From NCBI GenBank assembly GCA_051362555.1, contig CM120647.1, forward strand, positions 15,972,651 through 16,036,650: DNA of 64,000 bases. Direction: 5' to 3'. This DNA comes from Lingula anatina (Eukaryota > Animalia > Brachiopoda). Both the position numbers and the translations under genes were made by a program. The notes under the pieces were generated by a model, which saw only the letters and a program-made list of their open reading frames with translations, was not told the origin of the DNA and searched no databases. Positions 33,052 to 64,000 of this stretch are shown piece by piece (the first letter of the stretch is position 1; every line of letters starts with the position of its first letter).

Positions 33052-33093
<42 letters not shown>

Positions 33094-35157: not shown

Positions 35158-38100
35158 ATGATCATCATCCGCCTTACTTTAAGCGCGCTGATAATTGTTC
35201 AGCTTGCCCATGGAAATGGTCAACTTGCTGGATTAGCCCAAAAGTCACCCAACGTTGAGATTTGGACGCTTGCGGGACTCACGAGAGACCCAGAACATCT
35301 AAGAGATGAAGCGCAAGGAATAACCACTAAAAAGACGCCCATTACTGATGGAAGAATTCACAAGGGAATCACACAAGAGTCGTCCACTGTTGAGGGTAGA
35401 ATTCACGAGGGAATCACACAGAAGACGTCGCCCACTACTGAGGGTAAAATGCACGTGGACGTCACACAAGAGACGCCAACTACTAAGGATGGAATGCACA
35501 AGGAAGCCACACAAGAGTCCCCCAGTCAAAAGGATTCATTTCGAGAAATATCTGGCAACAGCAGTGAAACGTCTTCTTTCCCAGTTGTGATTCTCACGCC
35601 GTATAGATGGCTCTGTGTAAAAAATGGTAAACACAGCATCAGGGTCCACTGCAACTGCGATCCTTTGTGTGTCCTGTATGATGACTGCTGTTATGGGATG
35701 ACAGAGAATGCGACTGTGTGCGCTGCCTCTGTCAGATTAACAAGGACACACGGCACAATGCAATCTGCAACAATTCCTGGAACCAACGTAACAGAAACTC
35801 AAAGTGACAGCACCACCTCGGCTGCATCCCCTAACAAAACGTCTTTGATAAGGGGGGAAAAAAGAAGTCGACCCTGTGTCTATTTCCCTGGCACAAAAAA
35901 GCTCCTGTAGAAGAATTCCAGCATTAAAACGAGAAAACCGACAAAACACATTACCTTTTATGAACATGCATGGACTGAGTTTTTGGATGGTGGATCAGTG
36001 TCCGTCGTCTTGGCTGGAAGAGGAAAGCCTTGTCAAGTGTACTGATATCTCAAATACTAGCCTCACAGAAGACGCGCTATTGTACCAGCCAGTCACCGAC
36101 CCAGATACAATGATCACCTTCAGAAACAAGTACTGTGCAGCCTGTAATGGTATCAAGGGTACCGGGGAACCGTGGGAACTCGCCGTCTATTCCGCTAGGG
36201 CACTTCTTAGCGACATTACAAATTGCAGCTCCTCGATTTGTGTCTTAAGAAAAATGAGAGATCGCAGAAGTGATGGTTTTTTCCTCCCAAAGCCGGAATG
36301 GAATTTAGGGACATGCTTCAGGGAAATTGAGGGCGTTGCCTTTGGCCCTTGTCAGTTCAGCTTTATCAATGGAAGCGTGCGTCGTTTACCTCATCCACTC
36401 CCAATGCACTCAGCTTTACGAGATGCCTGTATGGCGTACAACAACCCTGTCGTCGTTAACCGTTTTGATGTAAGTTACAAGAATTACCACTGCATATTGT
36501 GTTATGTAGGTGATTTTACACTCGGGAAAGGTGAGTGGTTCGCTTTTCTACTACTACGTCATGTGTAAAAATTTTCCAGAACCATGCATTTATGGCATTT
36601 ATAATTACCGGTATCGTGCAGTTAACTGGCCTTCATCGTAATCTCAAGAATTTTATTTGAACCTTAGGAATAAAATGCACGTTTACGTTCTCGTAGATAT
36701 GATAATTATATATTTCCTAAAGAAATGGTGCAGTTCGATTTCGCCTAAGTATCACAAAGAAACAGCTTAAATATTCATATTGCCAAGCATTCTTGCAAGA
36801 TGTGCAGTATCTTTTGATTAAATTTATGTGTTTGGAAATAACATTATTGCAGATACAGTGTATATGGAGTTTTAATTCAATTTAGTTTTCATATATAATA
36901 CGGAAAAGGAAACAATTGATTGAAAATAGACGGAAAACCTAACTGACATTGATTACTGAGAAAAATAACGTTTTTTATGGAATTGTACTATGATGAAAGT
37001 TATTGACAGTCCTCCATAATGTATATTAGTTTTTGCATCTTGGGATTGAGCTTCACTGTAATGTATTTCACTTGGTTCATTATGTGTAATATAAATAAGT
37101 CAGTGATAGGGAATTTTAAAGTGGTATCAGATCTTTAGGTCACCACTAATGGCGTATTCTATATTGATTTTGTAGTCACTTGTCTGTAATCTATAAAACT
37201 TGACTTGGCACCTAGACAAGTAACAAATTTCTACAGAAGAGGTCGCACGGTCGCAAAAAAGTACATTTGATGATATCATTAGCTCTTTTTAGGCGTTTTA
37301 TGCGACCATGAAATACTTCTGCTATTTCACTGTAGCGAGTCATCTTGCTTACGAGACACAAGATGAACGACGAGTTGATTTCGACTTCTGCCCCATGGAC
37401 AATTAAAAGAGATTAATTCGATTTAGCAGTTTGACTTACAACAATACGAGTAGTTGAACAACACGTAGCTGATCATGTTTGCTAATCTTGCATGCCCACT
37501 AATTAATTGACTTAATTAGTGGGCATGCATTCAGATTCAGATCAAAATTGCACACCGCCACCTCTAAGAACCTTCGGTCTTTCTTTCCGTGCCCTATTGT
37601 ACCTGGGAGACCAAGACAGGAAACAGAGTGATGACGTCATGACTAGGGTGAGAAAACGAGCTGCAATAATCATGAATGATGAGGATGATACTAAAAATTG
37701 CATGTATAGATAAAATATTGTAAATAATTACGTTATTAATTCTTTCCCGCATGTGTCATGTTAATAGTCTGATGTAATTATTGTCAGAAGTGTCTTCCCG
37801 ACTTTATGGATGTAAACCGTAAGTCGTAAATACAATGTGAATCTGAACACGTCCCTTTTTTCCAGCCTGTAGATCAGCAGATAGTGTGCCCCCCTGGTTT
37901 TGTTCCTGTTGCCCAGGACTGCCGCTTTACATTTTGAACCATGCGACTGGGTTCCAACACCCAGGGATGGCTGTGGAGATATCAGAAGTGATGGTCGATT
38001 GGCAGCTGTACTGAGAGCTGTGCCGGCACGCTTTCATTACTGTGGGCGGAAACACGGCGCTGTTGACACGTCCATCACCTTTGTCCTTGAAACAATGGTC

Positions 38101-38397
38101 ACTCTTCACGTGAGAATAGCCCACTACGAGGAAGGTCGTAACATGTTTAACCATGTGCAAGCACGGATGGAAACTGCTCTGCAAAACGCGCAGTTGAAGA
38201 TATCCGGAAGGCCAGTGGGTGTACGTTCAGGATCGTTCTCTGCCTGCATGAAGAACGCCACGAACCCCAGCTCCGTGAGGCCATTTCATGGGGTGTCCAC
38301 GCTCTCAACCCCGAGGCAGAGCCGAGGAAATATACCTGTTGGTAATGTTACAGTTTGGTTGTTAATGGCGCTGGTGGCAGTGGTGTGGGATTTCTAA
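35158..38397 (+). CDS. Secreted/GPI-like somatomedin-B-domain cysteine-rich protein; two apparent +1 frameshifts (pseudogene or assembly error)
   Basis: TATAAA at 35083; signal peptide MIIIRLTLSALIIVQLAHG; T/E-rich repeats; SMB motif HCNCDPLCVLYDDCC; Cys modules PVTDPDTMITFRNKYCAACN and YKNYHCILC; hydrophobic C-terminus VTVWLLMALVAVVWDF. Exons ~35158-36530, 37520(or 37535)-37647, 37866-38397. Frame breaks near 35852-35900 and 37925-37936. Confidence 0.75.
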
Positions 38398-41587: not shown

Positions 41588-41988
41588 TTGTGTAGGTGTG
41601 TCCGTATGTGTAAAAGAGAAAGAGAGAAAGAGGGGGTATAGTGTGTGTGTGTGTGTGTGTGCATGTGTGTGTGTGTGTGTGTGTTTGCAGGTTGAAGAGA
41701 GAGTTGAGAGGGCACCTGTGTACATATATGTTTGCAAATATACTTTATATGCATCCTTTCATAAAGAGAAACATCTCCGAACTGACATCAGGGCGGCACT
41801 GGTTGATACCATTCATCGTTATATGGGACATTTAAATTGTGACGTCAGCAAAATCCCCGCCTGAAATCATGTTTAGGAACAACACGAGACGATAAACACT
41901 AATTGTTTTTCTATAAACTACAAACATTAAAGAGAACATTAACTTAAAGTCTTCTCCACGACCGCCGCCCATGAAGAATCTGTTTTAT

Positions 41989-42074
41989 ATGCTAATGAAA
42001 TGTCTGTAATGATGGCAATTGTGACGTTTGAGCCTTTTTGATGTTGTGAAAATATACGCTGAAAATAGTATAAA
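41989..42074 (+). promoter_or_regulatory. Core promoter of cystine-knot gene A: octamer/TAATGARAT-like motif, TGACGT, TATA
   Basis: ATGCTAATGAAAT at 41989, TGACGT at 42022, TATAAA at 42069; same module upstream of B and C. Confidence 0.7.
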
Positions 42075-42164
42075 TGTCTCGCTGTGGATGGTCATTGATA
42101 AAAGAAGTTCAACATTTAGCCTGAAACAGCGCGTTCGCCAAAAAAGAGCAACTATCTAGTCAAA

Positions 42165-44709
42165 ATGAAGGTAAATATAAGTGTTCTATTTGACTGTAGT
42201 TTGACCTTATAAGACTTTTTTCGTTTCATGTAAGCACGGTTTTTGTTTCTGATGTTACTGCGTTTGACAGTTATGACTTGGAAAATGTCGAAGGAAAAAA
42301 CTAGAAAAACACAAATTCGACCTGGAAAGTAATGCAACGTAGGCCCACAGTAGGATTCGTACTCTTGTGTCCAAATACATGTAGCAAACTTAGGTCGACT
42401 ATAAAACCTCATTTTAACAGTAGTTTTTGCTGTATAACGATCGTTATTAGCAAGTTGTCGCACTATGCGAGATTTTTATGGAAACACTCCTTGGAACTTA
42501 TACCTTCCAATCGCTTATGGTTGTCAAGTTAGATATATCTATGTAAGCAAAAACAGTTACATGACGATTTGGCGAATCATAGACTTCTTTCAATTTATTA
42601 AAAAAGCGCACATTTTTATTTCTTTTAGTAGGCTAATAATATTATCATTATTTATTATGTGTAATAACTACATTTTTTTTCAGACGATAATCCACGTGGT
42701 ATGCATGGTATTTGCCATTGTTGGAGTGGCGGAGTGTGCAGACGAAGATAAAAAATGTATGGGAATTCAAACAATAACAGGAAAGGGAAATAATAAGTCT
42801 CCTATCATCCCACCATTGTCTGAGGATTGTTTGTAAGTCATACATTTATTTATTTATTTATTTGCTTATTTATTTATCTATTGTTTGTTTGTTTTTTGCT
42901 TATTTATTTATTTAAATTCTCTATCAAATGTTTGTAAAATTAATCTGAAAAAAAAAAGATAATGTCAGGTTGGATTCTGACGGTGGGGAAAATCCTAAGA
43001 TCACATTCCGATAACTTGCACATTTAAATACTTCGACGTATTGGAATTTTCTCTAATCACCTCAGGGTCACAACTAACCACACTCAAGGTAGACCACATT
43101 CTTTAACATATGATAATGAATTGCAGTTTAATTGAACTTGAACACAGTAAAAAGAAGTTCCTTGTCTACTTTTGTTAACGTGTCTTACGATGTCTCTGCA
43201 AATATATTTTATCATGCTTTCAAAATTTTGTTAATTTTATATTGTAAATTTTGAAAAAAATTGTTATCCCCTTGAAAAATAAAGAAATTGTCAACATGTG
43301 CTTAGCTTTGAAAGATTGAGCCTAGTGATAGTGATCAAGTTTTCAAATAAATAAATAAACAAGTAAAAGAAAAAAAAAAGAAACATTTCAAGTCCAAGCT
43401 CTACTGTTAACTTTTACTGAATGTTCAACTGTTTATCGATTACGTTTTTAATGAATTGACATCTTGATTTTTTCTATTCTAGTAAGAAGTTGGATAACAA
43501 CGGCATTTCTCTCTCTTTGTAAGTACATGTACTTGTATATATTTACTGCAATAACTTGCACGTGTAGTGTAGTGTAGTAGAGCGCAGTGCAGCACAGCAC
43601 AGTAGAAGTATAGTATAGTATAGTATAGTATAGTATAGTATAGTATAGTATAGTACAGTATAATTTTCTATATGTTCTACGCGTTAAACTCACATCTTCT
43701 ATGCTGACCAATCTGCGTTTTATCTCTTCTACATGTTTTACTATGTCTTATCTTTTATCCCAGGCCATTCTGCCTAAAAGATGAATGTGACGCGACCTAC
43801 AAAGCCCCGACCACAATAAAATACCAAAACAAGAACTGCAAAGTCATTTGTCCACATATTTTCCACTACGCACAGGTGGTTTGTGACACGTAAGTTGTAT
43901 TTCATTATTTTTTATTTATTCATTATGTCATTTATCTTTATCATACTTAGCATCATTAAAACAGCAGGAGTCAGAGAATAACTCTATCCTTTTATCGTCA
44001 GTCATGGTACATGTAACATTTGTTCTTCCTCTACTAATTACAATATTATATGATTTTTAAAACTTTCAAATGAACGATTCTACGTTATGTACGTGTAGGT
44101 CAAACATATCTGTAAAATAACAAATGTGAAGACAATCTTCCGAACAATATCTACTTTCCGACCTGTGACTTTTTAATAAGGCATATGTGTATACCCATGT
44201 ATTTGAGTGGCAAACCAAGTGAGCTGACCTTCGCAAAATCTGTTGACTAATTCAAACGAAAGTTTAAGCAGGGTTTATGCCACACTACAAAATTTCAATC
44301 AAAATGTGCGTGTGTTATGGGCTCGATGTCTTTCTTTGAATACACTTTTCATTCTGGTAGTAACTAGATGTGCAGAGGACATACAGTGTAGTCCATCCAT
44401 CGATTATATTGAAAATAAAGAACTTTTTACCAAGGGATACTAACCTAAAAAAATATTCACACTGACGCGCCGTGTCCATCGACAAAACTTTTTTTACTAA
44501 AGGCATATTACTTAGTCTTTATTGCTTTTAAACCTTTTCTGTCTTCTTTATTTTTCAGGAATGAGGCCTGCGGGACAAATAAACACTGTGACGTTGACGA
44601 AAACTTCAAGAAAACATACACAGTGTTGGCCAATTGCCCAGGAAAACCAAAACCAATAAAGATCAAAGTAGAGAATGTCCCATACTGCTGCTCCTGTCAA
44701 AATGACTAG
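42165..44709 (+). CDS. Secreted 13-Cys cystine-knot protein, copy A (Spaetzle/neurotrophin-like fold), 143 aa
   Basis: Exons 42165-42170, 42684-42832, 43764-43889, 44559-44709, all GT-AG and in phase: MKTIIHVVCMVFAIVGVAECADEDKKCMGIQTITGKGNNKSPIIPPLSEDCLPFCLKDECDATYKAPTTIKYQNKNCKVICPHIFHYAQVVCDTNEACGTNKHCDVDENFKKTYTVLANCPGKPKPIKIKVENVPYCCSCQND*. Fold inferred from Cys spacing and terminal CCxC. Confidence 0.85.
43608..43660. repeat. (TATAG)n pentanucleotide microsatellite
   Basis: Direct inspection. Confidence 0.9.
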
Positions 44710-45790
44710 AACTGTGATCAATGTAAAGTTCAAACTTAATGAGTTTTGTTAGAAATATAATACGGAACGGGAGGAAACTTCTTCACAATATACAATTTGT
44801 AAAGTTTGTTTCATTTGTGATTGTTCCTAGACGTTCGTTGAAAGCCCGGGCGAGTTCACTGTCAAGAGCAGTGAAAAATGTGACTGAAGTTATAATAATA
44901 AGATATACCTTTATTTTTGTAACCATGACTCCGTTGCCAAACATTGATATTTTTATCATATGGAGCTTCACGAACTGAAGGTATAAATGCTGCACTTTAT
45001 ATTGTATGGTCAAGTCAAAAGAATAAAAATTACGGCAAATAGGATATGACAAATGATAACGCATTTACATAGTAATTTCATTGTATCAAGCTTTTCAAAA
45101 TCTGTTTCTAGGTTATATTTATTCTTAAGAAATACCGCACAATTATATTTATTGTAGTCTTCTTAAGAAATCGGCGGTCGAATGTTGTGCAAGAATCTGT
45201 AGATATTTCATTTGATATAATTTTAGATATATTTGATATAAAAAAGTGCAATATGCTGGTTCTGTACTGCCATTTGTATACTTTTGAATTGCAAAAGCTG
45301 TAGATAGGCGTAGGCAGTGTTCAAGGTATAATGTTGGAATAATGCGTGTATTTTGCAATAAAAGTTTTAAAATATTGAAGTGTGTTGAGTGATAAATATC
45401 TCCCTAGTGTCTTGTAATGCATTAATTTTATTTTAATCTTTGTTCGTGTGACTGCTTGGAGCGCCAAGTTCTGTCCACTCTTAGGATATTTCCTCCAAAG
45501 TCTGGATTTTGACAGTATTCCATAGTCAACACACAAATTCATTCATCATCAGTGTTAATAAACAATAAATGTAAAATACTGCAGTCATTTTTCATTGTCA
45601 CATACATTTGTGAGAAAGGGCCAAAATTCGATTTCCAATCGGTTGCATGCCCGGTATAACCATACTCTCCATCAGAAATCATCTAAGTGATGACATCAAC
45701 ATTATGCAACTATTCTTGCAAAGTACTGAACTGTGCATAGAATTAGCCACAGGAATATCTGTGAATATCTAGTGAAAGTCATCCTGTGAC

Positions 45791-45981
45791 CTGGTCCCAG
45801 TTTTACAAAAAAAAACAAAAAAACTTAAGTCCATTTCCTGGCTTAGTTGACTAGGATTCCCATGAGAGTGTTGTTACACTACTCCTGATAAAATGAGATG
45901 TGTCCATGTGACATTGAAAACTTGGCAATTAAATTCTTAGTCAAGGAACCTGACTTAAGTTTTTTGAGGAACCGAGGCCTG
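45791..45981. mobile_element. Degenerate MITE
   Basis: CTGGTCCCAGTTTTACAAAA..CTTAAGTC..TTGACTAGGATT is inverted relative to AATTCTTAGTCAA..GACTTAAGTTTTTTGAGGAACCGAGGCCTG. Confidence 0.55.
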
Positions 45982-46576
45982 GCAGAGGGTAGTGTAGCTG
46001 AGTTTTAAACTGCAGACAAGCACTACAGGTACGAGGTCTACAAGGTGAAGCTATTACCGCGTCTAGTATGTAAAAGTAATGACTGCCATTTACCTGCATT
46101 GTATCCAAAAGGAAGCATCATTTTCACATTTTCGTTGCTGATGGCTGTCTTCGTCTGATTTTTCTGTGCTTATCTCACCAAGGAACTTTACGAAATGAGC
46201 TCCCTTTATTTACCAAAACCCAGAAAAAAGTGCTAAACCATAAATTTAATAATAGTACATAATAACAAGGCGAAGAGCTTGATGTTAAAGCAGATAGCAG
46301 TAAGAAAAAGCATTAAAAAGCATTGCATTTCAAAATCTACGAACTGATAGGACCATGATAATTATATCCAGATGCAATGCAAAATAAGTGCTGTCGTATA
46401 GACAATCCAAGCAGTGGCAAAACACTTAATTTAACTTTTGTCTTTTATCTTTTTATCACCATTTTTATTTTTGCAATATTTTTTATTATATAATGTATAG
46501 CATTTGCAATATTATGCTATATTTGAATAATGAGAGAGCTGGCAAATATCATATTGTATCGCTTAGAGTTCAATAA

Positions 46577-46638
<62 letters not shown>

Positions 46639-46941
46639 AAAATAATTGTAATTAAAAAATGCGGATAAAAGAAGCAGGGTTTCATGATCAGAGGCTTTAA
46701 CTAAATCATATTAAACCGATTTACAGAATAAAAATGTATCTTTAAAAATATATAATTATCAGACTAATGATCGAGCGGCTTCTTTTGATCTTTGCAGTTT
46801 ATCCCCAAAAAAGAAACGAGATTGTCATTTATCCCAAATAATTAGAGCATTAAGGGCAATCTTTTTTATCTGTATCACTCAGTGTGTTAGCTGAAGGTCG
46901 GCTGGAACATGGTCAGAATATTTACTACTTTTAAGTTTAAT

Positions 46942-46996
<55 letters not shown>

Positions 46997-47412
46997 TAGA
47001 GAGAGGAAAGAGGAGAGGGATAGGCGTTTTATTTATTTACTTTTATAAAGCAATTTCAGTCAACGAAGGATGGTTGCTTCAGTCAAAAAACATATTACTC
47101 ATTGTTCCTCTTAAATATCTTCGTTTGACGCGATAAAAACAGCTGACAACCATTAAAGAGTAATTTTAAGGATAGCAATATTCATAAGCAACTTCTTGGA
47201 AGCCAACCAAAATGTGTCATCAGAATAACAACGTTTATAAATTTACATGTAGCATTACACATTATTCATGATAACAGTTTTATTGGGTAGCGTCCATTTG
47301 AATAAGGTGGCCACTTTTAATGTACATTAGATAAATGAATCAGCGGTGTGAACGAACTTTTCTGTTCTTCTTGTATTTCTGTCCCTCATTTCCTCCTATC
47401 TTTTTCCCCTAA

Positions 47413-47455
<43 letters not shown>

Positions 47456-48917
47456 TTTGTTTTTCTTTTATCTCATTTTTTCTTTTGCTAGTAATTAGTA
47501 ACTACCACTCCATTACCATGTTATCAAATTGAACCTTTGGTGTATGTTGCCCTTTTTAATTAATTAATAAATAATAATAATAACCATTTTAACTTAAGAT
47601 CCTCAGAACTGAGCAAAACAAACGTCCCAGCGCTGTTTACAAAGATAAAAGTAAAACCTCGAGCTCATACAATGTACAAAGGTCTTTGATTAAATGTACA
47701 CATATACATGTACTAATAGTTTGTTTATTAAGAGCAGTCAGCGTAAACGTTAACTCTGTTCATTTATTTAATGACTGTTTATTTCAAAGAGAAAAAGTTA
47801 TTCACTCACCGTGACTCTTTTAAATGGGAATTAGTTTTTCTTTCATCTAAATGTACGTCATTTCACAGCATGCGCGGGTAATATTATAATACGCGTTAGA
47901 TGTCTAATGTGTGTTTATGTATTTAGCAAAGGTCGGCGACTTTGTTGTAGTCCCCGTCCCAATTTTCATTAAAAGTACATACTATTAAATAAGGTTACCA
48001 TCGAAGCCCAATACATGGCTTGGATCTATGAAACGGACACATTTTGACCATATAAGTTGATCACACGGCTAGCATATTACGCCACACCCATGACAAATCG
48101 TTACTTACTGCTGTTATGAAAATCAAAAATTTAAAAACCCGTTATTTGGAAGGAGAATGTTTTGAATACAGACGGGATTTAAGTGACGTTACGTGCTCTG
48201 TTTAAATCTCTTGAGTTAATGAACATCAATTAAGGACACATAATGCTAATTAAACGTGTCAATTCTGATCACCAAGTTAAAGGATCCCTTCTTTTATGGT
48301 CTTGACCTCCTAGTCATGTCCTATTACTAAGTCAAAATCAAATGACGAACCTGTTTTGTAAGGAGCTTTTTTTGCCAATTTTGTCACTTTTCGTAAACAG
48401 TTTTACCTATCGTGACGACTATGAAAATTTTGTTGACTCATTACAAATATAGAGGATGCACATTTTTGTAGCATCTTGGATGCATGCCAAACGCGTGTGC
48501 GCTTGTTTGTGTGTGTAAGGGTGTGTAGGGGGTGGAGGAGGGGGATGGCAGTCTCATATTGAAGATAACAGTTTTCGTATTGCTTCGAAGTTCTGAAAAA
48601 TTCCAAGGATTAACTGTTCCATTTTCACCAAACCCCCAGACTAGAAACTGAGACAGTGAAACGATAAGTTATGGCAGTCGATACCGGGCTGTGTCGTTTT
48701 GAGCGTGTGATGAAAATGTCAATTTTCAATGTTTTCCTCAACTGGTATGACGTAGGCAACGGTCCCGCCTGGGCAGGATTTTTGCTCTATCAACAAACCA
48801 GATGGATGCGCCCTTTCCCAATTAAATCCCATTGTTTTGACATAAAAAGTTGAGCACCATGGCTAATTAATCTTGTGTCTCGATTGAAGTTGCCGCCCTG
48901 AGAAAAATTGTTTTTCT

Positions 48918-48999
48918 ATGTTAATGAATTACCTGTTAAAGGTAATTTTGACGTTTGAGTGACTTGTTTGACTTACAGTAGGTGGTGAAATAGTATAAA
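48918..48999 (+). promoter_or_regulatory. Core promoter of cystine-knot gene B
   Basis: ATGTTAATGAA at 48918, TGACGT at 48949, TATAAA at 48994. Confidence 0.7.
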
Positions 49000-49097
49000 G
49001 GTACCTCCTGTACGATCTGCTGGTAAACACGCCCTCAGAGCGACACTGAAGAAGTCTTCAATTTCTCAAGATATTTTAGCTTTATCAATCTTTCAAG

Positions 49098-50073
49098 ATG
49101 AAAGTAAGTATTCCTTATAGTTACTTTACTTAGGCTACCCGTTGTCTCAAACACAAAGGTTCTAGCGTTCCTAAGCCTGAATAGGAACGAGAGAGAGAGA
49201 GAGCAAAAAAAAATTATAGCTAATTTTTAATCAATCCCTATTTTTTATTGTGGGTGATTTGTCTTAACTTAAATTTTGTCCTTTTTTTTGTAATGTCAGT
49301 AGCTAAGCAGGTTATGTTTTTAGTTAAAAAGTACACAAAAAAAAAATAACAACTAATACACGTTTGTGGACATTTCAGATGAAACAACAGTAAATTTGAT
49401 CTGCATTTCATAAACATCGTTATCTTTTAATCATTGTTAATTTTGAATCTCTTAATTTCCTTACAGGGGTCAATATTCATGCTCGCAATATGTGTGGCAT
49501 GTGTAGTGTCCGAAAAGGTGGATTCTGCCGCCAATACATGTATGGGAATACAAACATACACAGGCAAGGGCGCAAAGATGAAGAAAACTCCTGTCATACC
49601 GCCTCTCAGCGATGACTGCCAGTAAGTGAGATATTTGCTTAAACAGTTAACATTATTTTCAATTTAAGAATCTTCCCTGAAAAGTACACAGCACTAGGGC
49701 TAAATTCAAATTGCCAATAAAGCAAGTAAGGCACATCTAATGCGTACTTTAGGCATTGCAAGTTAATTCAAATAAATTCCGCATTGAAGAAATAGCCATT
49801 TTTATGTCCAGTGGACATTAAAAGAGACCATGCTTTCAAATTCCTCAGCTGTTAATTGTGCGTGTAGACATTAATTTTAGTGAGAGTTTTAGCATGAAAC
49901 TATTGAAACACATTTTCAAGAAGAGAAAAAGAAAATTATCAATAGCAAGTTATGAAAATTTAATGATCAAAGTGACTTCAATTGGCTGATCCTTTAAAAC
50001 AACCCAAAATGGGAAAAACAAGATCTGGAATCGCTCTCTATGACTTGTTGCAAACACAGATAATCATCATCAC

Positions 50074-50131
<58 letters not shown>

Positions 50132-51382
50132 ATAAAATTCATCATTTTTTAAATTCCAAGTATTGAACATTTTCTTTCGTTATATTGTAGCAATAAGTTG
50201 AAGAAAGCAGGGATCATTCCGTCGATGTGAGTATAAGGATTTTTCGTCTTATTGATCACGTTGCATTTTACAAACTAAAGTCACTTTTCCGCTTTTGCGT
50301 CTTCGTCATAGAGTAAAACTGAGTAAACAAACTTATTCAGATACGTGACGTAACAGACGAGGAAAAGTTACACAGATTTTTCAAACGTGTTTTATTTTTT
50401 TAACCTAAGATATGCATCTACCATGCATAAACAACCAAACACATGTATTTGTTATAATGCGCCAAGAAACAACCCTGGCATAAATTCAATTTTAATATTA
50501 AATTAATTTATCGTGATACTTTTTGAACCTTGTTTCAGGCCAATGTGTCCCAAGGAAAATGGTTGCACAGTGACGTACAAGGCAGTGGAATCAGTCAGGT
50601 TAAACAGCAGAAAAGTTTGCAAGGTCGTCTGCCCGCACATCCTCCATTATCCTAAAGTGGAGTGCGACAAGTAAGCAGCATCCACTTTTTTCATTACAGA
50701 GAGTTTTACCGTTCAGAAAAACACTAGGCGTGGGAGAGGACGGGAGGGGGGGATTCCAACTTATCTTTTTGGTAGGGAAAAGTACGCTCTCTATCAAGTT
50801 TTGCATAGTTGCTATGCCATTATGATAAAAAGATCCACTTTTTTCAAATAAGGAGTAAAGTTCAACTGTCTCCATTTCCATAACAAGAATGACTCAAAAC
50901 TAAGGTCCCATCCCCATAGACACCGCGGTTTTTATGGGATTGGGGTCCTAGAAAACTAAACTTCGAACTCGAAAAAGAGGTTAATAGATGTTATTTTGTC
51001 TCTCGTTTTGGATTTGATTTACATCGGTAATTTAGAAAACTCCAAACAAAAAGTGCTGGTGAATTGTTAGGAAACCTATGTGTTGTTTTATACGGACCCA
51101 ACGTTAATGATATGCCTCTAACTCTCTGCTGTCTTTATAGCAGCAACAGATGCATTGCAGTGTTTAATTATCTCTTACAGAGATGAGAAATGCGACAAGA
51201 AGAAGAAGAAGCACTGTGAGAGAGACGACGTCAATTACACAAGCACATACCGAGTGTTGGTGAAATGTCCAGGCACTAAAGGGGACACCATTATGCTAAT
51301 CTCCAAGCAGGCTACGTGCTGCGACTGCATGAGTGGGTTCTTCTTAGACTTTTCTTCATTATTTTCATTTGGAAAGAAGTAG
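49098..51382 (+). CDS. Secreted 13-Cys cystine-knot protein, copy B, 164 aa
   Basis: Exons 49098-49103, 49467-49621, 50539-50670, 51181-51382: MKGSIFMLAICVACVVSEKVDSAANTCMGIQTYTGKGAKMKKTPVIPPLSDDCQPMCPKENGCTVTYKAVESVRLNSRKVCKVVCPHILHYPKVECDKDEKCDKKKKKHCERDDVNYTSTYRVLVKCPGTKGDTIMLISKQATCCDCMSGFFLDFSSLFSFGKK*. Same intron positions and phases as copy A. Confidence 0.87.
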
Positions 51383-51667
51383 AACTGAAAGACCTTTTTT
51401 TTTACATAGTATCTTCTGGACTGTAATCTTAATTGTGCTTATCGTCCAATATGAGAGTGTGCGTATTATAAGTTGACTCTTTGCGGGCGTTTCCGTGTGT
51501 CATCGGACGTTTCCGGCTGTGTCACCATGGTGACTAGAGGGGATGATAACAATTGGTCGAAATCTTGCTCTCAAGATTCGTTGACTGACTACATGTGTCT
51601 GTAAAGGTTTTATGGTATGTGCAATGCTGCCATGTAAATAAGCAAGAAGTGTGGTATAGGAATTTCG

Positions 51668-51713
<46 letters not shown>

Positions 51714-52697
51714 TATATTTTTTGTGTTAGTCTATTCCTTTGATCAAGATTTTCAAAAGGTATATATTTTGGTGCTATACCCAGGACCATATATTGTATC
51801 TTGTCCAGATATACGTGTACAATGTTTTATTATTTTGGTTTAAACATGCAAGAGAGAATTATACAAAAGCACATTTATGGGGCACCCCAAGCCATTGCAT
51901 GGGCCCTAATGACCAACATTTCGGAGGCAAACATCTCTGTACAGCCATTTGGATGATTTTGTGTCAAAATTCAAATGTACACTGATTGCAGCGTACGTCT
52001 AAACGTACACAGACTGTAAATACGTACATATTCTGGGCTAGACAGGGTAGGAAATTTTATTGCTTATTTTTGAATTGAAAAATGAGAACATTCATGTTTT
52101 GTTTATAAATATATACTATATAATTTTGATATGCTTCCAAGACTTGCAATTATTCATTTGTAATTGTATACTATCATATTCTTAACCGTTTTATTGAATA
52201 AACAGTAGAAAAACGTGGATTTTCTTCAATGTAATGTTTTTATATAATCAAATGTTACTTTGGCATTCGTATGATATCTTTTCGTAAAAACGATCCATTC
52301 TTATTTATTTTCAAACCAATATTTGCCGTTGTGCTGTATTTAAACTGTGACAAAATTTCAACAAATATATTTTAAATCTTTTATTACATGAATGACAATA
52401 TATCCTTATTCGACTATGTTAAAAATGGAACACAAATCGTGCATTGCTTCCTGTTCTCTACTGTTGGTCTTGTTTTGGCAGAAGGCCCATAAAGGTGTAT
52501 TTTTTATGTCACAGGGGTATCTAGTATAGACTGTTAAAAAATCAAAGAAGTGACTCTTCAGCAATTTTGTAACAGACCAGTAGCGACCCCTGTGGTCAGA
52601 TAGAAGCACACATGGGCCTGTGCGCACGTTATTCCACAAACATGAGAAAACAGCGTGCACCGTGTGGATTTCACATTTTACTGGCGCCCATAGACGA

Positions 52698-52807
52698 TAG
52701 ATTGTTGTATAGTAGTTTGCATATCTTTGCTATGTGAGAAATTTCATTAAGTTAGATTGTTGTATAGTAGTTTGCATATCTTTGCTATGTGAGAAATTTC
52801 ATTAAGT
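52698..52807. repeat. Perfect 55-bp tandem duplication
   Basis: TAGATTGTTGTATAGTAGTTTGCATATCTTTGCTATGTGAGAAATTTCATTAAGT occurs at 52698 and 52753. Confidence 0.92.
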
Positions 52808-53980
52808 TGTCGCCTTGTTTGCATATTTCTCATACATTTAACTTTTGTGCTCCCGGAAGCTGACAGCAATTTAGCGTGAACCCCCAGGGAGTTAGGTCGA
52901 TCCAGATGGATCGAACTAAATCTGTGGGAACCCAGTCTTTGTCAGACTTTCCCATACGATGTTCTCTGTCAATTTAATATAGGCCATCCTACTAGTAGGT
53001 ACCATCCTCATCTTCTCTTGAAAAAATGTGTGTACATCGTAAGTAGCTCTTTAACATTTTCTCCTTCAGTTTTATGCATTGTAATACACTCGACCAAGAA
53101 GTTAAAAATGTGGAATTTTTTTTCAAAAATTAAAAATAAACCAGGTTATATAGTGGGAAAACATCTGGAGTATATAACAGTACCGAATGGTACCGAATGG
53201 TACCAATATTTGGTAAAAATATATACCTGAGCTCATAAGATTACTTTATTCTTATTCAAAATAACGATGTTTCCGAACTTTTTTTGGGCGACTGTAAAAA
53301 GTCCCCCCTCCTTTATCTACGAGTACATATAGATGGTTTAGTAGCTTATGATTTGCCTTGTCTGAGTATCCTTTTGGCTCTTTGCTTTTGGCTCATCTTT
53401 GAGTTGTTTTCTCAGCACTTTTTTATTATTATCATTTTGTGCATTTCTAACGTTATCTGCCATGTCTTCCTAGTACTGTACATGTATTTTCATTTTTTTC
53501 ACCGAAGCTGTAAACATCTTTTATTTTTTCCAGTTTGACCTCAAATCCTTTCATAGACCCACTCATTATCTCTTTTATTTCTGCTCTCTCTGTAGTAAGA
53601 GTATTTGATGTTTGACTTTGCCTTCGGTAATCTCAGTTATTTGTTCACTTCGGTGTGCCTTCCTCACTAGTCTTGACGTTGAGTCGTATGATCCCCACAC
53701 AGACCTAGCATTTCTTCCTCTTTTACCTAGCCATGGTTTTTATCTCTTACATAATATATATTCCAACTATGTTTGAGCTCTTTCTATCGCACTACGTGCT
53801 TATTAGTTGTCTTTTGTTCTTACATTTTTGGATTATTGTTCCAGCGAACACCTTGAGTCAGCCATATGCCGCCATGTTCATCCGGGTCCTCATCGATGCC
53901 CTGACGTAATAGTTCGGCACTGTGGCTAATAAATCTTGTGTTTTGATTGAAGTTGCCTCCCTATGAAATATTGTCTTTCT

Positions 53981-54064
53981 ATGTTAATGAATCACCTGTA
54001 AAATGACAATTTTGACGTTTACGTAACTCGTGTGCCTTGGAGCAGTTGGTGAAAATAGTATAAA
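53981..54064 (+). promoter_or_regulatory. Core promoter of cystine-knot gene C
   Basis: ATGTTAATGAA at 53981, TGACGT at 54013, TATAAA at 54059. Confidence 0.7.
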
Positions 54065-54162
54065 AGTACGTCGTGTTACATCTGCTGGTAAACACGCCCT
54101 CAGAGCTACACTGAAGAAGACTTCAATTTTTCAAGTAATTCTACATTTATCGATCTTTCAAG

Positions 54163-54324
54163 ATGAAGGTAAGCAGTCATTGTGGTTATTTTACTTAGTC
54201 CACTTGCTTTTTTTCACCACAAAGGTTCTAGCGGTCCTAAGCACGAAGATCTATTCGCTGGTCTCTTTATAGCTTTACCATCACAGAAACTGCAAAAATG
54301 TGTGTATGATTTAATTTACTAAGA

Positions 54325-54368
<44 letters not shown>

Positions 54369-57300
54369 AGAGAGTTTATAAGTAATTTCAACCAGTCCCC
54401 AACCTTTTTATTGTGACTGGTTAAAATGTCTCTTAATTTCAGTTTTGTCCCTTCGTCTAATGTTAGCAGCGTAAGACATAATGTAGTTTTTTATTTACTG
54501 TAACGCTTTAAGGGCAGATGACTGTAAGAATGAAATATAGGTGGTCAAGACTCAAAAAAGATTTCGTTCAGTTTTTGCCTTGGGACAGACTTTTGTCGTT
54601 ATCCAACCAAACCAACACTGTTTCTGCTCAAAAAAGGGTCCTTGCTATGGTTGCAGGCCAAACTTGATTTTTTGGTCAATTTAGTTAAATCTGGAAACTT
54701 GGGCATTCTGAGATAAAACTGTCGTTTTTGGTTCTGCACTTCAATTACACGTATATCGGTACTTTTAAATTATTGTCATGTCTAATTTCCTTATTTTCCT
54801 TGCAGGGTTTTGTTTTTATGCTCCCGCTGTGTATGATGTTCGCAATGTTCGCAAAAGTGGAATCGGCCTCCAATAGATGTATGGGAATACAGATGGACAT
54901 TGGAACCGTCATGAACATAAAGAGATCTCCGGTCATACCACCTCTCAGCCCTAGCTGCCAGTAAGCGAGAATTATTTTCACAGTGTAATTTGCTCTCAGA
55001 TTAAGATTCTTCACATGAAGTACTCCCTATTAAGACTTACTTCAAATTGCCAATAAAGAAAAAAAGGTATTTTTGATGCATGCTTAAGTCTTTGCGATAG
55101 GAAAATGACCTCCATGTGAAAGAAATAGTAATTTTGTGTGCAGAAGGCAAAAAACGGGGCCTTTTTTTCTAATTCCTCGTCTGTTAATTGTGCGTGTAAA
55201 CATTTTAGTGAAAATTACTCCACAAACTATTCAAAAACATTTTCAAGTAGAGAGGGAGAAAATTAAGACACACTTAATGTGTGTTGCTCATGGTGTCTTC
55301 GCAGCTGATCTTTTAAAACATTCCCATAAATGAAAGAAATATTTGGATCTTTGTCTTCTGTTTCGGCCAAAGGCATTAATTATTATCATTATTGATGTAC
55401 TTGTTATTTTTGCGCTGTACAAAATGTTATTTTTTGTTGTATTGTAGAAATAAATTGAAGAACGCAGGGATAATTCCGTCGATGTAAGTGAACATGGCCA
55501 ATCGTAAATATTTTTGCTGCTTAGGTATATGACTGAACATTACGGTAATGTTATATTATACCACAGGGAAGCTGCAGAAACTCTATTGCATTTGATTAGT
55601 GTGACGTCAGCTCAGTGGCCCATAATAAAACCCCATAATACTGCAGCTAACTGAATTAAATTGCAATAAAGATAATAATACTTTTTGACATAAGGCCACA
55701 GTTTTTTAATTTTATGGATGACATCCTGCGCGCGCACGGATTTTCGCCCGTTCTCCAAAAAAAAAAAAAAAAAAAGCCCCCCCCCAGCCCCCAACGAAGT
55801 CGGTTGTCGCAAACGTTGTTATTGAATTTGCAAGGAAATGAGCTTTCTGCGCATGCGTATTTTTGCCACGTGGAAATGCGGCCACTTTGCTGTCAAATTC
55901 ATCTCTAGGATTACTTTCAAATTACACAACAATAAAAGTCATAAAGAGAACGGGCGCCATCGTTTTGGATTGGTATGCCATTGATATTGGGCATGGAGAT
56001 ATCACCTTTTTACAATTGTGCCAAAGGCTGGCGGCGGCCGAAACATTTCTGTGACATTCTGTATAAAGCAGCACATTAATACCAGGTTTTCTGTAGCGAA
56101 AAAAGGGTCGACAAGGGCGTCCAGGTATTTGGTGGGCTGAAGGTCGGACAGGCCACCTGACAGTTTAGCTGCTTCGTGTGAGTTGAAGTTGACAAAATGG
56201 CATCGTCTGAAATGACCTTTAATAGATTTGGTAGTATTAAGCATATCTTTGCATCATTTTTTAAACATTTCTGTGAAGTGTTCAAAATGTTTTAATATTC
56301 TGAGAATACAAATAAAGACACACTGTTTGATTGATATTTGTTTTATTGATTGCTATACCAAATGAATGCATGAAATAACCTTAAATAGATTTGGTAATAT
56401 GAAGTATATCAATTCATGACTTTTTTTACATTTCTACGAAGTATTCACAATGCTTTAATATTTTGAGAGCATGGATAAAGACATATTGTTAGTTTGATAC
56501 GTGTTTCTGTGGTTAAATTTGTGTTTCCAGCTGTGTACTGACAGCATTCCTTTACTTAAGCATTTTTTTTTTTGGGGGGGACTGTTTTTTTTTTTTTTCG
56601 CCCTCTCGCACCGATTTTGGGGTACTCAGAGGATGTCATCCATAAAAATAAAAAAGTGTGGCCTAATTGTTGATAAAAAGTCTAATTGTTTCTAGAGGGA
56701 ATAAACGTGTTTTTCTGCAGATGAGATATACTTTACAGCCTCGTCCAATCATCAAAAGGCCTTTATCACATATTTCTCTATTATTATTCTCTATTGCCTA
56801 TATACATGAATGTACGTGTATTAATTTTCGAAATAATTCATCATGGAGTCAGTCAGGCATTGGTATTGAATTGAAACATTTTGCTAGTTTTAAACCTTGT
56901 TTCAGGCCAATGTGTCCCAAGGGAAATGGCTGCACAGTGACCTATAAGGCAGTGACGTCGATCAAGTTGAGTGGCGGGAAAAGGTGCACGGTCGTCTGCC
57001 CCCATGTCCTCCATTATCCTAAAGTAGAGTGCGACGAGTAAGCAGCAGCCATGTTTTGTCTTTCAGTACAGATATTTTTTACCGTTACGCATGCGCAATC
57101 ATCTCCGTTACAGGAGTGATTCGAAACTTAGAAACGTAACACTCAAAGAATGGTTTATGGGTTTAAATTTCAGCTTTTTTGGAAATGAAGTACAATGGTG
57201 ATTAATTATGTTAAAATATTCGGGAAAATAACTCAGTATCAATACCTTTCTTTCACTGCGACTTTTGTAGCAGATTATCGTACATGCTCGTTTTCTTTTC

Positions 57301-57495
57301 TTTTAAAGTCATGAGAAATGTCCGGGGAATAAGAAATGCCAGAGGGACGACGACAGATACACGAAAACGTACCGAATTTTGGCAAAGTGCCCCGGTGAAA
57401 CCATCTTGCTTGTATCCAACCAGGCCACGTGCTGCGACTGCTTGAGCTCATTTTTCTTAGACTTTTCCTCATTATTTTCCCTCGGAAAGAAGTAG
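54163..57495 (+). CDS. Secreted 13-Cys cystine-knot protein, copy C, 159 aa
   Basis: Exons 54163-54168, 54806-54960, 56906-57037, 57309-57495: MKGFVFMLPLCMMFAMFAKVESASNRCMGIQMDIGTVMNIKRSPVIPPLSPSCQPMCPKGNGCTVTYKAVTSIKLSGGKRCTVVCPHVLHYPKVECDDHEKCPGNKKCQRDDDRYTKTYRILAKCPGETILLVSNQATCCDCLSSFFLDFSSLFSLGKK*. The last acceptor is AAG. Confidence 0.85.
55694..56663. mobile_element. Non-autonomous DNA transposon with TAA TSD (Zator/Harbinger-like) in intron 2 of cystine-knot gene C
   Basis: TAA|GGCCACAGTTTTTTAATTTTATGGATGACATCCT...AGGATGTCATCCATAAAAATAAAAAAGTGTGGCC|TAA. Confidence 0.85.
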
Positions 57496-60435: not shown

Positions 60436-61700
60436 TCACCTCATTGAAAACCGCCTGGAAGTCAAATTCATACGCGTCACTCCCAAATGACCCAACGATC
60501 GCAAAGGCGTCGGGTTTTCCGCACTTGTATCAAGAGCGGTGTCCCAGAGTTCCAAATTCTTGACTTCTTTCTCGTCCTCCAACTCGTCTCGTGCGTCTGC
60601 GAGCATTTCCTGGTGCTCGTTGCAGCTCTGTTGTAATTTGAGTTGATGGATTTCGTGGCGGAGGGATATTAGTTGGCGCGCAAGGTCCTGATCTTGGGAA
60701 CGCATTTCAGTCTGAAATTAAATGATAAAGCCTTAATAACAATGATATCATTATAAATGTTCATGCAATTATTACCTCCGCCAAGGAGGTTATGTTTTCA
60801 TTCCTGTTTGTCTGTCCGTTTGTTTGTCATCAACATAACTCAAAAAGTTATGGACTGATTTTAATGAAATTTTCAGGAACTGTCTAAAGTGGGCCAAGTA
60901 AGAGATGATTAGTTTTTGGTGGTGATCCGAATCAATAATCAATCAATAATCAATAATAATCAAAAATCGCTGCCTTGGCGGAGGTCTGCGCTCTCGTTCA
61001 CTTTTGTTTTGCAGATACATGTTTAATAAGTCGCGTCAATCAGAAACGAATAAAGCGATAAACTTACTAGTTCCTCTCGTAACCAATCCAAAGCATCACT
61101 TATTCGCTGCTCCGCCTCCGACAGTGGCGCCGCAGTGTGGTCAGAATCCTCGACGCCATCTTCCGATATCGTACCAAGTCCATTCTGTACCGAGTTCGGT
61201 TTTCCTTTCGTGCCTCTCTGTAAGTGTTTCTCCTGCCACTCGACGGTGCTCCTTCGTCTTGTACTTAGATTTAACCGGGCAGTCATAGCTTTGAGCTCTG
61301 CTAGCCCTCCCTGCTGTTGCTGTTCTTGGGTAGTTGGCGCCATTGGCGAAAGTGACGCGTAGTCCCCATTTAACATAGACGGGGACCTACCATCTCCCAA
61401 TCCGTTTTTTAACGTCATTATAGGTGGAGACAATTTCACTTTTTTCGGCGAAAATTCAAGTTTATCAATCATCTTCGTTGATGCACGAGGCAGATGGTTC
61501 CTCTCCTCATCAGGAATTTTATTGTAATCGTTCGGGATAAAATTGCACAGAGCGTCCCCTATAAGCGCCGCCCGTCTTCGTGGCCGCTGTCGAATGACGT
61601 TCTGGTTAACGTCTTCTAGTTCTGCGGCAGCGGCAACGGCATCGGCGTTTTCGTAGATGTGGGCATCGTCGTCTTTGTTTCCATTTTCTTCTGCCATCAT
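60436..61700 (-). CDS. FAM167A: FAM167 family protein (DUF3259), 2 coding exons, ~302 aa
   Basis: Exons 61068-61700 and 60436-60711 (phase 0). Motifs LKAMTARLNLSTRRRSTVEW, ISDALDWLREEL|TEMRSQDQDLARQLISLRHEIHQLKLQQSCNEHQEML and GVTRMNLTSRRFS match FAM167A/B; probably co-orthologous to both. Confidence 0.9.
60771..60995 (+). mobile_element. Non-autonomous Helentron/HINE (DINE-1/Pearl-like) element in the FAM167 intron
   Basis: ACCTCCGCCAAGG and inverted CCTTGGCGGAGGT subterminal repeats, GTCT/GTTT microsatellite, core AACTCAAAAAGTTATGGACTGATTTTAATGAAATTTTCAGG. Confidence 0.7.
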
Positions 61701-64000
61701 AATGTTCCGATCGACGTATTTTTGAGAACTTCCAATGGTCCTTTCAGAATTATTCTTGAGGGTTTCAGTAAATATATCCTTGCATTCGGATTTCCAATTT
61801 TACAATTACCTTGAATTTGAATAGCTAGATCTATGAATTTCAGAGCTTATGAAATTTCAAACTGTATTCCGTTTAACGCCAATTTAAATTTTAATCGTCG
61901 GTATTTCAAAACGATTCATAACATCATATCGTCGCAGTAACATATTTTGGTCCTCTACTGGGTGTCTCAATATTTCAAGACGCATTCAGCTACTTTGGCC
62001 AATATTTCCTGATACACGTATGTCGCATGAAACTTAATCGCTTTGGTTTTGCGAAACGAAAGGTCTATCTTGTCTCGAATCTCGAATCGTATTATAATCT
62101 TGCCTATCTGAAATCGCGGCACGGTCTACCTAGGCTCTATGGAATCGTAGAATGGCCTATTTGACCCTCTGAAATCGAAGAACGGTCTCTCTGGTCTATC
62201 TAGATGGAAGAAATCTTGGTCCATCAACACAACCAGGAATCGCAGACCTAGATCTGCGTATATATTTCTTCTCAGATATCAGTTGTAACACAGCCCGTTC
62301 AAATATATGCATCTAGTAGACAGCCAATGTAAAAGTGCAACCCAATCCAATTAGGGATTCAACAGTTAGCATTATTAACAGGCAGACACTGGCAGAGACC
62401 ATTATCATACAGACCGCCGCTATGGACTAGGCTTGCTTGTGGTTGCCGTATTAATTCCGTATTGATGTATATCGATTGGTACCAGATTGAATAATCTGGC
62501 TTTAAAGCATTTTTCGCGGAAATGGCGGGTTGCTAGGAATGTATTATGGGGCCACTCACTGTTTTGTGTGTACAAATTTTAACAGCCCTCGGGAGAATTG
62601 AGAATTTGGGAAAACCCCAACTCCTGGATTATTTCTGAGACGTAGATATAATCTTAGACAAGTGAATCATGAAGAATTTAGTGGAGGCAAATTCCAGCAC
62701 GTATGATCCGACCTCCTCTTAAATTTCCAGGGAATAACGGGAACGAAACTGTATATAGAAAACACTGAGTTTCTTATCTAGTACCACATTCCTTGGCAAC
62801 GATGCAATCCCGATTCGATGCGTGATGAAGCTAATTGGCAAGAGTGCCTCTGATGGTCAACTTCCTGTTTCCCGCGTTTAAAGTGGGGATCTCTTATATA
62901 TTCTCCTGGTCTTCAGTGCATAGAATGTAATGGCAACTTAAATGGATACTATAACGATTTTAAAATCGTGCGACAGTGCTTCTATCTGGCGGTCACACAA
63001 TTACTGTAAAAAGATTGTTCGGTGACGGTTGAAGAAGTCGATAGTCCGATTCACTGTTTTAAAAAGTACACTTAATATCTTGTATCTGTCTTAAATGATT
63101 GTCTTTTGCAGCCATATACTCCGGCCCTGTTTCTGATACTGTTTTCTTTGGTTTCAGCTGTGATGACAAACTTATCCCAATACAAATCCGCCTATCAGCG
63201 ACTTCACTTGTCTTTTGTACGCTTCTGACGGTCCTCTGTTAGTCACAAAATCTGAAAAATAAGAAAATAACCGCTAAAATACTATGAATCATAGAGACAG
63301 CACGAAAGTACGCATTGCTTATGCACCTTTTCTCTGAGTAACCAGATGGAAGAGTGCTTTGCCTTTAATCGTAAGGCATGATTCAGTCCTACCTTGAACA
63401 TCCCCATCAGATAAATTGCATTACTGAGCATGATACAATAACCGTAATGGGGTTTACGTCTTGTTACCTGGCAACAATTGCCATGACAATAACAATAAAC
63501 TCAGGGAACATGATTCTCCAGATATCTGAGATCTGTTGGCAGATATTGTCAATTTTTTGTTTAGTACCGCGGGGGACAAGCGAGCATACCTTGCTTATTG
63601 GTGTTTGATTTCCAGAACAACCTACTTCTAGGTAACGTCTTAAAATGGTTTCCGTGTTCGTTGAAATTCGGAATAATTAATCAGACAAATAAAAGGATTA
63701 AAATGATACTTGTTGAACGTACGCGTCTCATAGAACAGTGTACCAATCTGTTGCACATGTACATTGTACAACATGGCAATTTTGTCACGAACATTTTACC
63801 AAAAGTTGGACTCTCAAATTACCAAAAATATAATAAATAAATAAATAAATAAATAAATAAATACGCCTTCGGTTGTGACATGTGATATGTGACAGATGCA
63901 TCACAAGTTTATCAAATATTAAACGAAGCTAATTCGCGGTATTGTCCACATTGATGTATGGTCATTGAATCACAATAAGAAAAATACTATTACTCACTTT

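What the first reader, a model, noticed from the sequence alone, without database searches (positions are those of the whole stretch)
42165..57495. Tandem cluster of three intact genes for a possibly undescribed 13-cysteine Spaetzle/neurotrophin-like secreted protein family
Seen: three head-to-tail genes, fragmented in the ORF track, share one architecture (6-nt coding exon 1 'MK', intron phases 0/2/2), a signal peptide, CMGIQ..P[IV]IPPLS..C.P.C, C..TYKA, C.V[IV]CPH..HY..V.C, TY.[VI]L..CPG and CCxC. All 13 mature Cys are invariant while the loops diverge. Established: C..(P)..C..C..C..CCxC spacing typifies the Spaetzle/NGF/coagulogen cystine knot, and Spaetzle dimerises through an unpaired Cys. 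Inference: the odd Cys count suggests disulfide-linked homo- or heterodimers. The short Cys-containing N-terminal segment in place of a long prodomain, plus extra finger cysteines, is unlike canonical Spaetzle or neurotrophins. Candidate lineage-specific Toll/Trk-type ligands, clotting, pheromone or gland/venom proteins.
Basis: partly seen in the sequence, partly recalled or inferred. Interest (0 to 1): 0.85.

Follow-up and report, generated by a model that had tools for sequence, protein, structure and literature searches.

The report
Lamp-shell cystine-knot secreted protein family
Three neighbouring intact genes of the lamp shell Lingula encode small, likely secreted proteins predicted to fold like growth factors (a cystine knot) but fitting no named family, so they are probably an unstudied, lineage-restricted set of extracellular signals.

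Summary
The three head-to-tail genes are there and intact. They match unnamed RefSeq models of the brachiopod Lingula anatina (LOC106180581, LOC106179071, LOC106180636). One RNA run splices gene 1's 'MK' exon (218 reads). All 13 cysteines are invariant. A fourth paralogue, on another contig, keeps them; the sequence searches found nothing outside Lingula. Two AlphaFold models (pLDDT about 70) give a helix plus a two-finger beta fold. In the structural searches 31 of 31 and 35 of 36 rows were cystine-knot growth factors, all weak (Z up to 5.0). Noggin ranked first both times; Spaetzle was last or unlisted. There is no Pfam hit, no long prodomain, no CXGXC and no CXCXC. So this is a predicted growth-factor-type cystine knot of an unnamed family, not a demonstrable Spaetzle or neurotrophin. 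Most likely it is a secreted ligand or ligand trap, perhaps a disulfide-linked dimer (untested). Receptor and tissue are unknown. Verdict: new variant of a known kind, interest 0.5.

The parts
42061..42074 (+). Gene 1 TATA-box motif, 96 nt before the ATG
   Evidence: the shared 12-mer occurs 3 times in the window, once before each gene; read ends pile at 42110-42114
42110..42170 (+). Gene 1 exon 1: 5' UTR plus coding ATG AAG (42165-42170)
   Evidence: RNA depth and joint to 42684
42684..42832 (+). Gene 1 exon 2: signal peptide, Cys27, PPLS motif, Cys51
43483..43518 (+).
   Evidence: AG..GT, in frame; present in P0003; helix 49-57; not tested with reads
43764..43889 (+). Gene 1 exon 4: finger 1, predicted knot Cys I and II
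44559..44709 (+). Gene 1 exon 5, coding part: predicted knot Cys III-VI, finger 2, CCxC, stop
48987..48999 (+). Gene 2 TATA-box motif, 104 nt before the ATG
49098..49103 (+). Gene 2 first coding exon (MK); absent from the RefSeq model, which starts at Met7
   Evidence: homology to gene 3 exon 1 region (81% over 335 nt)
49467..49621 (+). Gene 2 exon 2
50191..50226 (+). Gene 2 36-nt microexon
50539..50670 (+). Gene 2 exon 4
51181..51382 (+). Gene 2 exon 5, coding part, with a Phe-rich 17-residue tail
54051..54064 (+). Gene 3 TATA-box motif, 104 nt before the ATG
54163..54168 (+). Gene 3 first coding exon (MK)
54806..54960 (+). Gene 3 exon 2
55448..55483 (+). Gene 3 36-nt microexon
56906..57037 (+). 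Gene 3 exon 4
57309..57495 (+). Gene 3 exon 5, coding part, with the Phe-rich tail

Best explanation
Three intact tandem paralogues encode small, likely secreted proteins predicted to form a growth-factor-type cystine knot with a helical cap, which likely act outside the cell as ligands or ligand traps by binding a protein partner through the two fingers. Shown: gene structure, cysteine pattern, splicing and transcription of gene 1's first two exons, purifying selection. Predicted: mature Cys 4, 7, 8, 9, 12 and 13 form the knot (ten-membered ring); the helix before it packs on the fingers as in noggin and coagulogen. Inferred: the short N-terminal part stays attached by disulfides instead of being shed as a prodomain; Cys 6 and 10 bridge the finger tips; one Cys is left over and would link two chains, the first Cys of CCxC being the best candidate.
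For: Hydrophobic N-terminus and no other hydrophobic window above 1.8 in 4 of 4 proteins. Two models agree on topology, pLDDT 71 and 70, mostly 70-90 over the knot. 31 of 31 and 35 of 36 rows of the wide structural searches are cystine-knot growth-factor chains, out of 48,161 compared. Atlas neighbours by features carry NGF, IL-17, Spaetzle or noggin domains (0.90-0.92; 11-53% of members). Ring spacing C-x5-C plus C-x-C equals the noggin motif quoted in 10.1101/510602. dN/dS 0.28 for genes 2-3. An odd count also in the fourth paralogue (15). Known members of the superfamily are secreted regulators (PMC4079206, PMC9071555).
Against: All structural scores are weak (best Z 5.0, rmsd 3.8-3.9; no Foldseek hit at E 0.001), and the tool warns that Z under 8 can mean a common arrangement. 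Alignments had only 4 sequences; two or three of five models scored under 60. No disulfide was observed. High level in X4 (373 reads in 9.5 million on 210 nt) and tandem expansion fit a bulk secreted effector as well as a signal. A shared fold shows no function. Gene 1 may have 14 mature Cys.
Confidence: 0.5

Rival explanations
1. Coagulogen-like bulk effector: an abundant secreted protein whose helical cap is opened by a protease so that it polymerises or sticks (wound clot, mucus, adhesive or defence secretion).
For: Coagulogen gives the longest alignment, 100-105 residues including the helix (Z 3.7-4.1). High transcript level in X4. Basic residues in the loop between the first two mature Cys of all three genes. 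Tandem copies, shared TATA motif, CpG-undepleted region.
Against: rmsd 4.3-5.2, identity 12-15%, tied with other knots; no Pfam hit. No entry among the 14 no-homology shell proteins of PMC4595640 Table 26 fits by length, pI and composition. The coagulogen cleavage mechanism is recalled, not read here.
Confidence: 0.25
2. One reading: divergent Spaetzle/neurotrophin-type dimers that activate a Toll or Trk/p75-type receptor.
For: Spaetzle cluster is the top Atlas row for gene 1's knot by features (0.90, 15% of members) and by structure (TM 0.53, under the naming bar). Neurotrophins fill the top 11 Foldseek ranks for gene 3. Long finger 1 (31-32 residues) with an extra hairpin. CCxC ending, like Spaetzle (recalled).
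Against: No Pfam Spaetzle or NGF hit. Spaetzle crystal structure Z 2.1, last of 36. No long unstructured prodomain as described in PMC9427763; no RxxR site in 4 of 4. The NGF family keeps only the six knot Cys (PMC4079206); these have 13.
Confidence: 0.17
3. The proteins are disulfide-rich but not cystine knots; the predicted fold is a shallow-alignment artefact.
For: No significant sequence or Foldseek match; pTM only 0.58-0.59; shuffled proteins reach an Atlas score of 0.9 in 4-10% of cases.
Against: Two targets give the same topology; the Atlas's own model agrees (8 of 10 structure rows are eukaryotic clusters, 6 named knot families); aligned range ends put Cys on the known knot positions of several families.
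Confidence: 0.08

Closest known systems
Noggin / noggin-like / Trunk / PTTH group
   Same: Top structural row for both models (7ag0_A, Z 5.0, 89-90 aligned, covering helix and knot); ten-membered ring; C-x5-C-x5/7-C-x15/16-C run close to noggin's x5-x7-x14; secreted.
   Different: Cys I-II gap 31-32, not 22; ends CCxC, not CXCXC; only one Cys in finger 2; three Cys before the knot; no Pfam Noggin hit; about 60 residues shorter than noggin (length from aligned range to 232).
Spaetzle (Drosophila, Aedes Spz1C)
   Same: Knot without CXGXC, long finger 1, CCxC end (Spaetzle's CCxC and its interchain first Cys are recalled; PMC9427763 confirms a covalent dimer).
   Different: No long unstructured prodomain; about 45 residues with three Cys and a helix instead; extra finger Cys; weakest structural row (Z 2.1); no Pfam hit.
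Neurotrophins (NGF, BDNF, NT-3)
   Same: Lead one Foldseek list (E 0.085 and worse); extra hairpin in finger 1.
   Different: 13 Cys against six; no furin-type RxxR; smaller ring; no Pfam NGF hit.
Horseshoe-crab coagulogen (1aoc)
   Same: Similar size, Cys-rich, helix packed before a knot; longest alignment (100-105 residues).
   Different: Z 3.7-4.1, 12-15% identity, other phylum, no sequence signal; odd Cys count.
DAN family, sclerostin, glycoprotein hormones, vWF CTCK
   Same: Z 4.0-4.8 over the knot; a Cys in each finger placed for a finger-to-finger bridge (compare gremlin motif).
   Different: No CXGXC eight-membered ring in 4 of 4 proteins.

Membership tests
Cystine-knot growth-factor superfamily | Two-finger beta fold matching solved members | tested here: met
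   Predicted only; 31 of 31 and 35 of 36 rows; scores weak (Z up to 5.0)
Cystine-knot growth-factor superfamily | Six Cys placed for I-IV, II-V, III-VI (PMC4079206) | tested here: met
   Range ends put gene 1 Cys72 on FSH-beta 3 and sclerostin 80, and Cys150/152 on noggin 228/230; that these are knot Cys is recalled
Cystine-knot growth-factor superfamily | Disulfides actually formed in that pattern | not testable with these tools
   No coordinates or chemistry available
Cystine-knot growth-factor superfamily | Secreted (signal peptide) | tested here: met
   Hydropathy only, 4 of 4 proteins
Spaetzle | Match to Pfam Spaetzle model | tested here: not met
   0 of 4 proteins
Spaetzle | Long unstructured prodomain cleaved from the knot (PMC9427763) | tested here: not met
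   About 45-50 residues between signal and Cys I, with three invariant Cys and a confident helix; the fourth paralogue has a longer Thr/Ser-rich stretch
Spaetzle | Fold closer to Spaetzle than to other knots | tested here: inconclusive
   Z 2.1; Atlas TM 0.53, under the naming bar
Spaetzle | Covalent dimer; binds Toll | not tested
   Candidate Cys present in CCxC; no dimer or receptor model was obtained
Neurotrophins | Only the six knot Cys (PMC4079206) | tested here: not met
   13, 13, 13 and 15 Cys
Neurotrophins | Match to Pfam NGF model | tested here: not met
   0 of 4
Neurotrophins | Structural match | tested here: inconclusive
   Foldseek E 0.085 or worse; Z 2.9-3.5
Noggin / noggin-like | Ten-membered ring, C-x5-C with C-x-C (10.1101/510602) | tested here: met
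   3 of 3 window genes; x4 or x8 in the fourth paralogue
Noggin / noggin-like | C-x22-C and terminal CXCXC (10.1101/510602) | tested here: not met
   x31-32; CXCXC in 0 of 4
Noggin / noggin-like | Match to Pfam Noggin model | tested here: not met
   0 of 4
Noggin / noggin-like | N-terminal clip (noggin residues 28-48, PMC9071555) | tested here: inconclusive
   Alignments start at noggin 61-63; the model's N-terminus is low confidence
DAN / glycoprotein hormone / TGF-beta type | CXGXC eight-membered ring | tested here: not met
   0 of 4
Coagulogen | Helix plus knot fold | tested here: inconclusive
   Z 3.6-4.1, rmsd 4.3-5.2
Coagulogen | Protease-triggered gel formation (recalled) | not testable with these tools
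   Needs protein
IL-17 | Pfam IL17 match | tested here: not met
   0 of 4; structural Z 3.5-4.3 is tied with other knots

The most novel reading that the evidence does not exclude
A separate branch of the cystine-knot superfamily that joins a noggin-type ring and helical cap, a Spaetzle/NGF-type finger hairpin and CCxC, and a DAN-type finger bridge, and that is switched on by cleavage of its disulfide-tethered cap: a protease-triggered clotting protein or Toll-type ligand of brachiopods, evolved apart from horseshoe-crab coagulogen and insect Spaetzle.
Probability: 0.12. Interest if true: 0.8.

Novelty: new variant of a known kind. Interest (0 to 1): 0.5.

Why it matters
Brachiopod extracellular signalling, immunity and wound sealing are little studied. 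These genes give four concrete, small, expressible proteins with a cysteine pattern that fits none of the named cystine-knot families tested. A structure would help relate the noggin, Spaetzle, neurotrophin and coagulogen branches, and a receptor or clotting result would fill a gap for lophotrochozoans. The limit: the Atlas lists many unnamed invertebrate clusters of this general kind, so a lineage-restricted knot family is not surprising in itself.

Tried and rejected
Pfam on 9 single exons and on 4 whole proteins: nothing at cut-off; the one weak row (WH_GDS1, E 0.007, 1 of 4) was taken as chance. PDB sequence searches, single and profile: only E 0.8 or worse. Homologue searches: only four Lingula proteins; single-sequence queries, no profile search of the large library was possible, so distant relatives may be missed. 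No Spaetzle row among 31 rows or the top 50; absence there excludes nothing. Run search: no RNA holder listed. Runs X1, X7, X9 gave 0 reads, which is no test; microexon inclusion and genes 2 and 3 were not tested with reads. No whole genome was held, so the paralogue count is a lower bound. Shell-protein link: LOC and XP ids absent from the one supplement of PMC13425148 (it may use other ids); no fit among 14 entries of PMC4595640 Table 26. The coagulogen structure paper could not be read. Earlier findings: none. Positive selection: not seen (dN/dS 0.28; gene 1 pairs near or at saturation).

Full report
Observation. A six-frame scan found each listed motif once per gene, all on the + strand between 42.7 and 57.5 kb. 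Exon models built by coordinate gave three open frames with GT..AG introns. The database proteins then showed a segment that the four-exon models lack. It is a 36-nt exon in each second intron, flanked by AG and GT, 32 of 36 identical between genes 2 and 3 against 14 and 7 of 36 in flanking intron, and 20 of 36 against gene 1. The five-exon products are 155, 176 and 171 aa, with 13 invariant Cys from residue 27; identities are 66 of 153, 70 of 150 and 115 of 171. One 12-mer ending in a TATA box occurs three times in the window, 96-104 nt before each ATG.

Identity. Single exons of genes 2 and 1 and the gene 2 protein retrieved three 'uncharacterized' RefSeq proteins of Lingula anatina, a brachiopod. 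The window differs from them at 6, 2 and 3 residues, none a Cys. A search of 1.84 billion representatives with the gene 2 protein gave 3 hits at E up to 0.001: itself, gene 1, and a fourth Lingula protein on a different contig (LOC106153472, E 4e-8, 36%). The fourth aligns at 11 of the 13 Cys; by spacing its Cys75 and Cys153 supply the other two, and it has two more. The helix-coding segment is conserved in it. No hit lay outside Lingula, but only single-sequence queries were run.

Expression. Four of the nine listed RNA runs were laid on 41900-43330. X4 gave 373 reads, nearly all on gene 1's exons 1 and 2; 218 cross the 513-nt GT..AG intron, strand fits a + transcript, and ends pile at 42110-42114. 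That is about 190 reads per kb per million by a crude count that overstates. The other three runs gave none, which the tool rates as no test. The microexon junctions and genes 2 and 3 were not tested with reads. dN/dS is 0.28 for genes 2-3, lowest over the microexon region and the tail. CpG observed/expected is 0.75-0.87 over the genes against 0.33 in the first 28 kb; in invertebrates that pattern tends to mark regulated rather than housekeeping genes (established knowledge, recalled).

Fold. AlphaFold2 on four-sequence alignments gave pLDDT 71 (gene 1) and 70 (gene 3), low over the first 30-40 residues, with one helix (49-57; 51-59) followed by paired strands. Against 48,161 solved chains, 31 of 31 rows for gene 1 and 35 of 36 for gene 3 were cystine-knot growth-factor chains (three rows with vague titles were assigned from recall). 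Noggin led both (Z 5.0, rmsd 3.8-3.9, 89-90 aligned); sclerostin, gremlin, coagulogen and vWF CTCK were within 1 Z for gene 1, sclerostin and gremlin for gene 3. Spaetzle came last for gene 3 (Z 2.1). Foldseek had no hit at E 0.001; it ranked sclerostin and coagulogen first for gene 1 and neurotrophins first for gene 3. Re-alignment of Foldseek's lists put noggin first for gene 1 and vWF CTCK and IL-17A first for gene 3. The Atlas pointed to mixed NGF/IL-17/Spaetzle clusters by features (0.92) and to noggin (TM 0.41) or Spaetzle (TM 0.53) by structure, all under its naming bar. The superfamily is consistent across methods; the family is not.

Cysteines. Ends of aligned ranges place gene 1's Cys72 at Cys I and Cys150/152 at Cys V/VI (the partners' knot numbering is recalled). 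That makes the knot 72-116, 104-150, 110-152, with a ten-membered ring as in the noggin motif quoted in 10.1101/510602. Seven Cys remain. Cys132 sits at the tip of finger 2 and Cys93 in finger 1, the arrangement of the finger bridge in DAN-type proteins (inference). Cys27, 51, 67, 89 and 149 leave one unpaired; Cys149 is at the place of Spaetzle's interchain Cys (recalled), but it could as well pair with Cys67 or Cys27 in the same chain. Gene 1's Cys20 may stay in the mature chain and make the count even. No dimer model could be obtained.

Mechanism. Most likely (0.5) a secreted ligand or ligand trap that keeps its short N-terminal cap and binds a receptor ectodomain or a growth factor with its fingers; members of the nearest group do either (PMC9071555). 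A bulk coagulogen-like effector (0.25), a true Toll/Trk ligand (0.17) and a wrong fold (0.08) are the rivals. No call shows a partner, tissue or activity.

Known and new. It fails at least one defining feature of Spaetzle, neurotrophins, noggin, IL-17 and the CXGXC families, so it is filed only under the superfamily. Paper searches found no paper with both 'Lingula anatina' and 'cystine knot', none with these locus ids, and no title on this family; the library lacks most subscription journals. Seen: passages of PMC4079206, PMC9427763, PMC7535936, PMC13425148 and 10.1101/510602; part 1 of 5 and passages of PMC9071555; passages, a supplement search and part 9 of 24 of the supplement of PMC4595640; a supplement search of PMC13425148. 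Expression tables in unread supplement parts may bear on tissue. Verdict: real, intact, unnamed; new variant of a known kind; interest 0.5.

Noticed in passing
window 35068-38397 (+): Upstream gene fragments with a hydrophobic start, a weak somatomedin-B hit (E 0.05, below cut-off), a Cys-rich exon and a hydrophobic C-terminus; looks like a secreted or membrane-anchored SMB protein.
   Followed up: partly
window 60436-61799 (-): FAM167 gene downstream, convergent with the cluster (Pfam E 1e-26).
   Followed up: partly
window 25763-27366 (-): Exons of a PTH2-domain (peptidyl-tRNA hydrolase 2) gene (E 3e-11).
   Followed up: partly
window about 28000: CpG observed/expected steps from 0.33 (1-28000) to 0.83 (28001-64000), suggesting a boundary between methylated and unmethylated domains.
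   Followed up: no
window 49098-49103: RefSeq model XP_013418030.2 starts at Met7 and lacks the MK exon that genes 1 and 3 have and that is conserved here with its TATA motif; the model is probably truncated.
   Followed up: partly
window 51329-51382 and 57442-57495: Genes 2 and 3 end in a conserved Phe-rich tail (dN 0.03; low pLDDT) that gene 1 and the fourth paralogue lack; possible membrane or dimer contact.
   Followed up: partly
window 3403-3915 and 11228-11677: Tandem arrays with periods of about 78 and 102 nt (self-BLAST); the first is open for 180 codons.
   Followed up: no
window 8667-8937, 22653-22764, 25296-25485: Palindromic elements, two of them related (92% over 129 nt), like MITEs.
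   Followed up: no
window 32215-33309 (-): Three adjacent 93-153 codon open frames with no Pfam hit at cut-off; possibly a decayed mobile element.
   Followed up: partly
P0004 (LOC106153472, another contig): Fourth paralogue with a Trp/Gly then Thr/Ser-rich N-terminal stretch and two extra Cys; its gene structure was not seen.
   Followed up: partly
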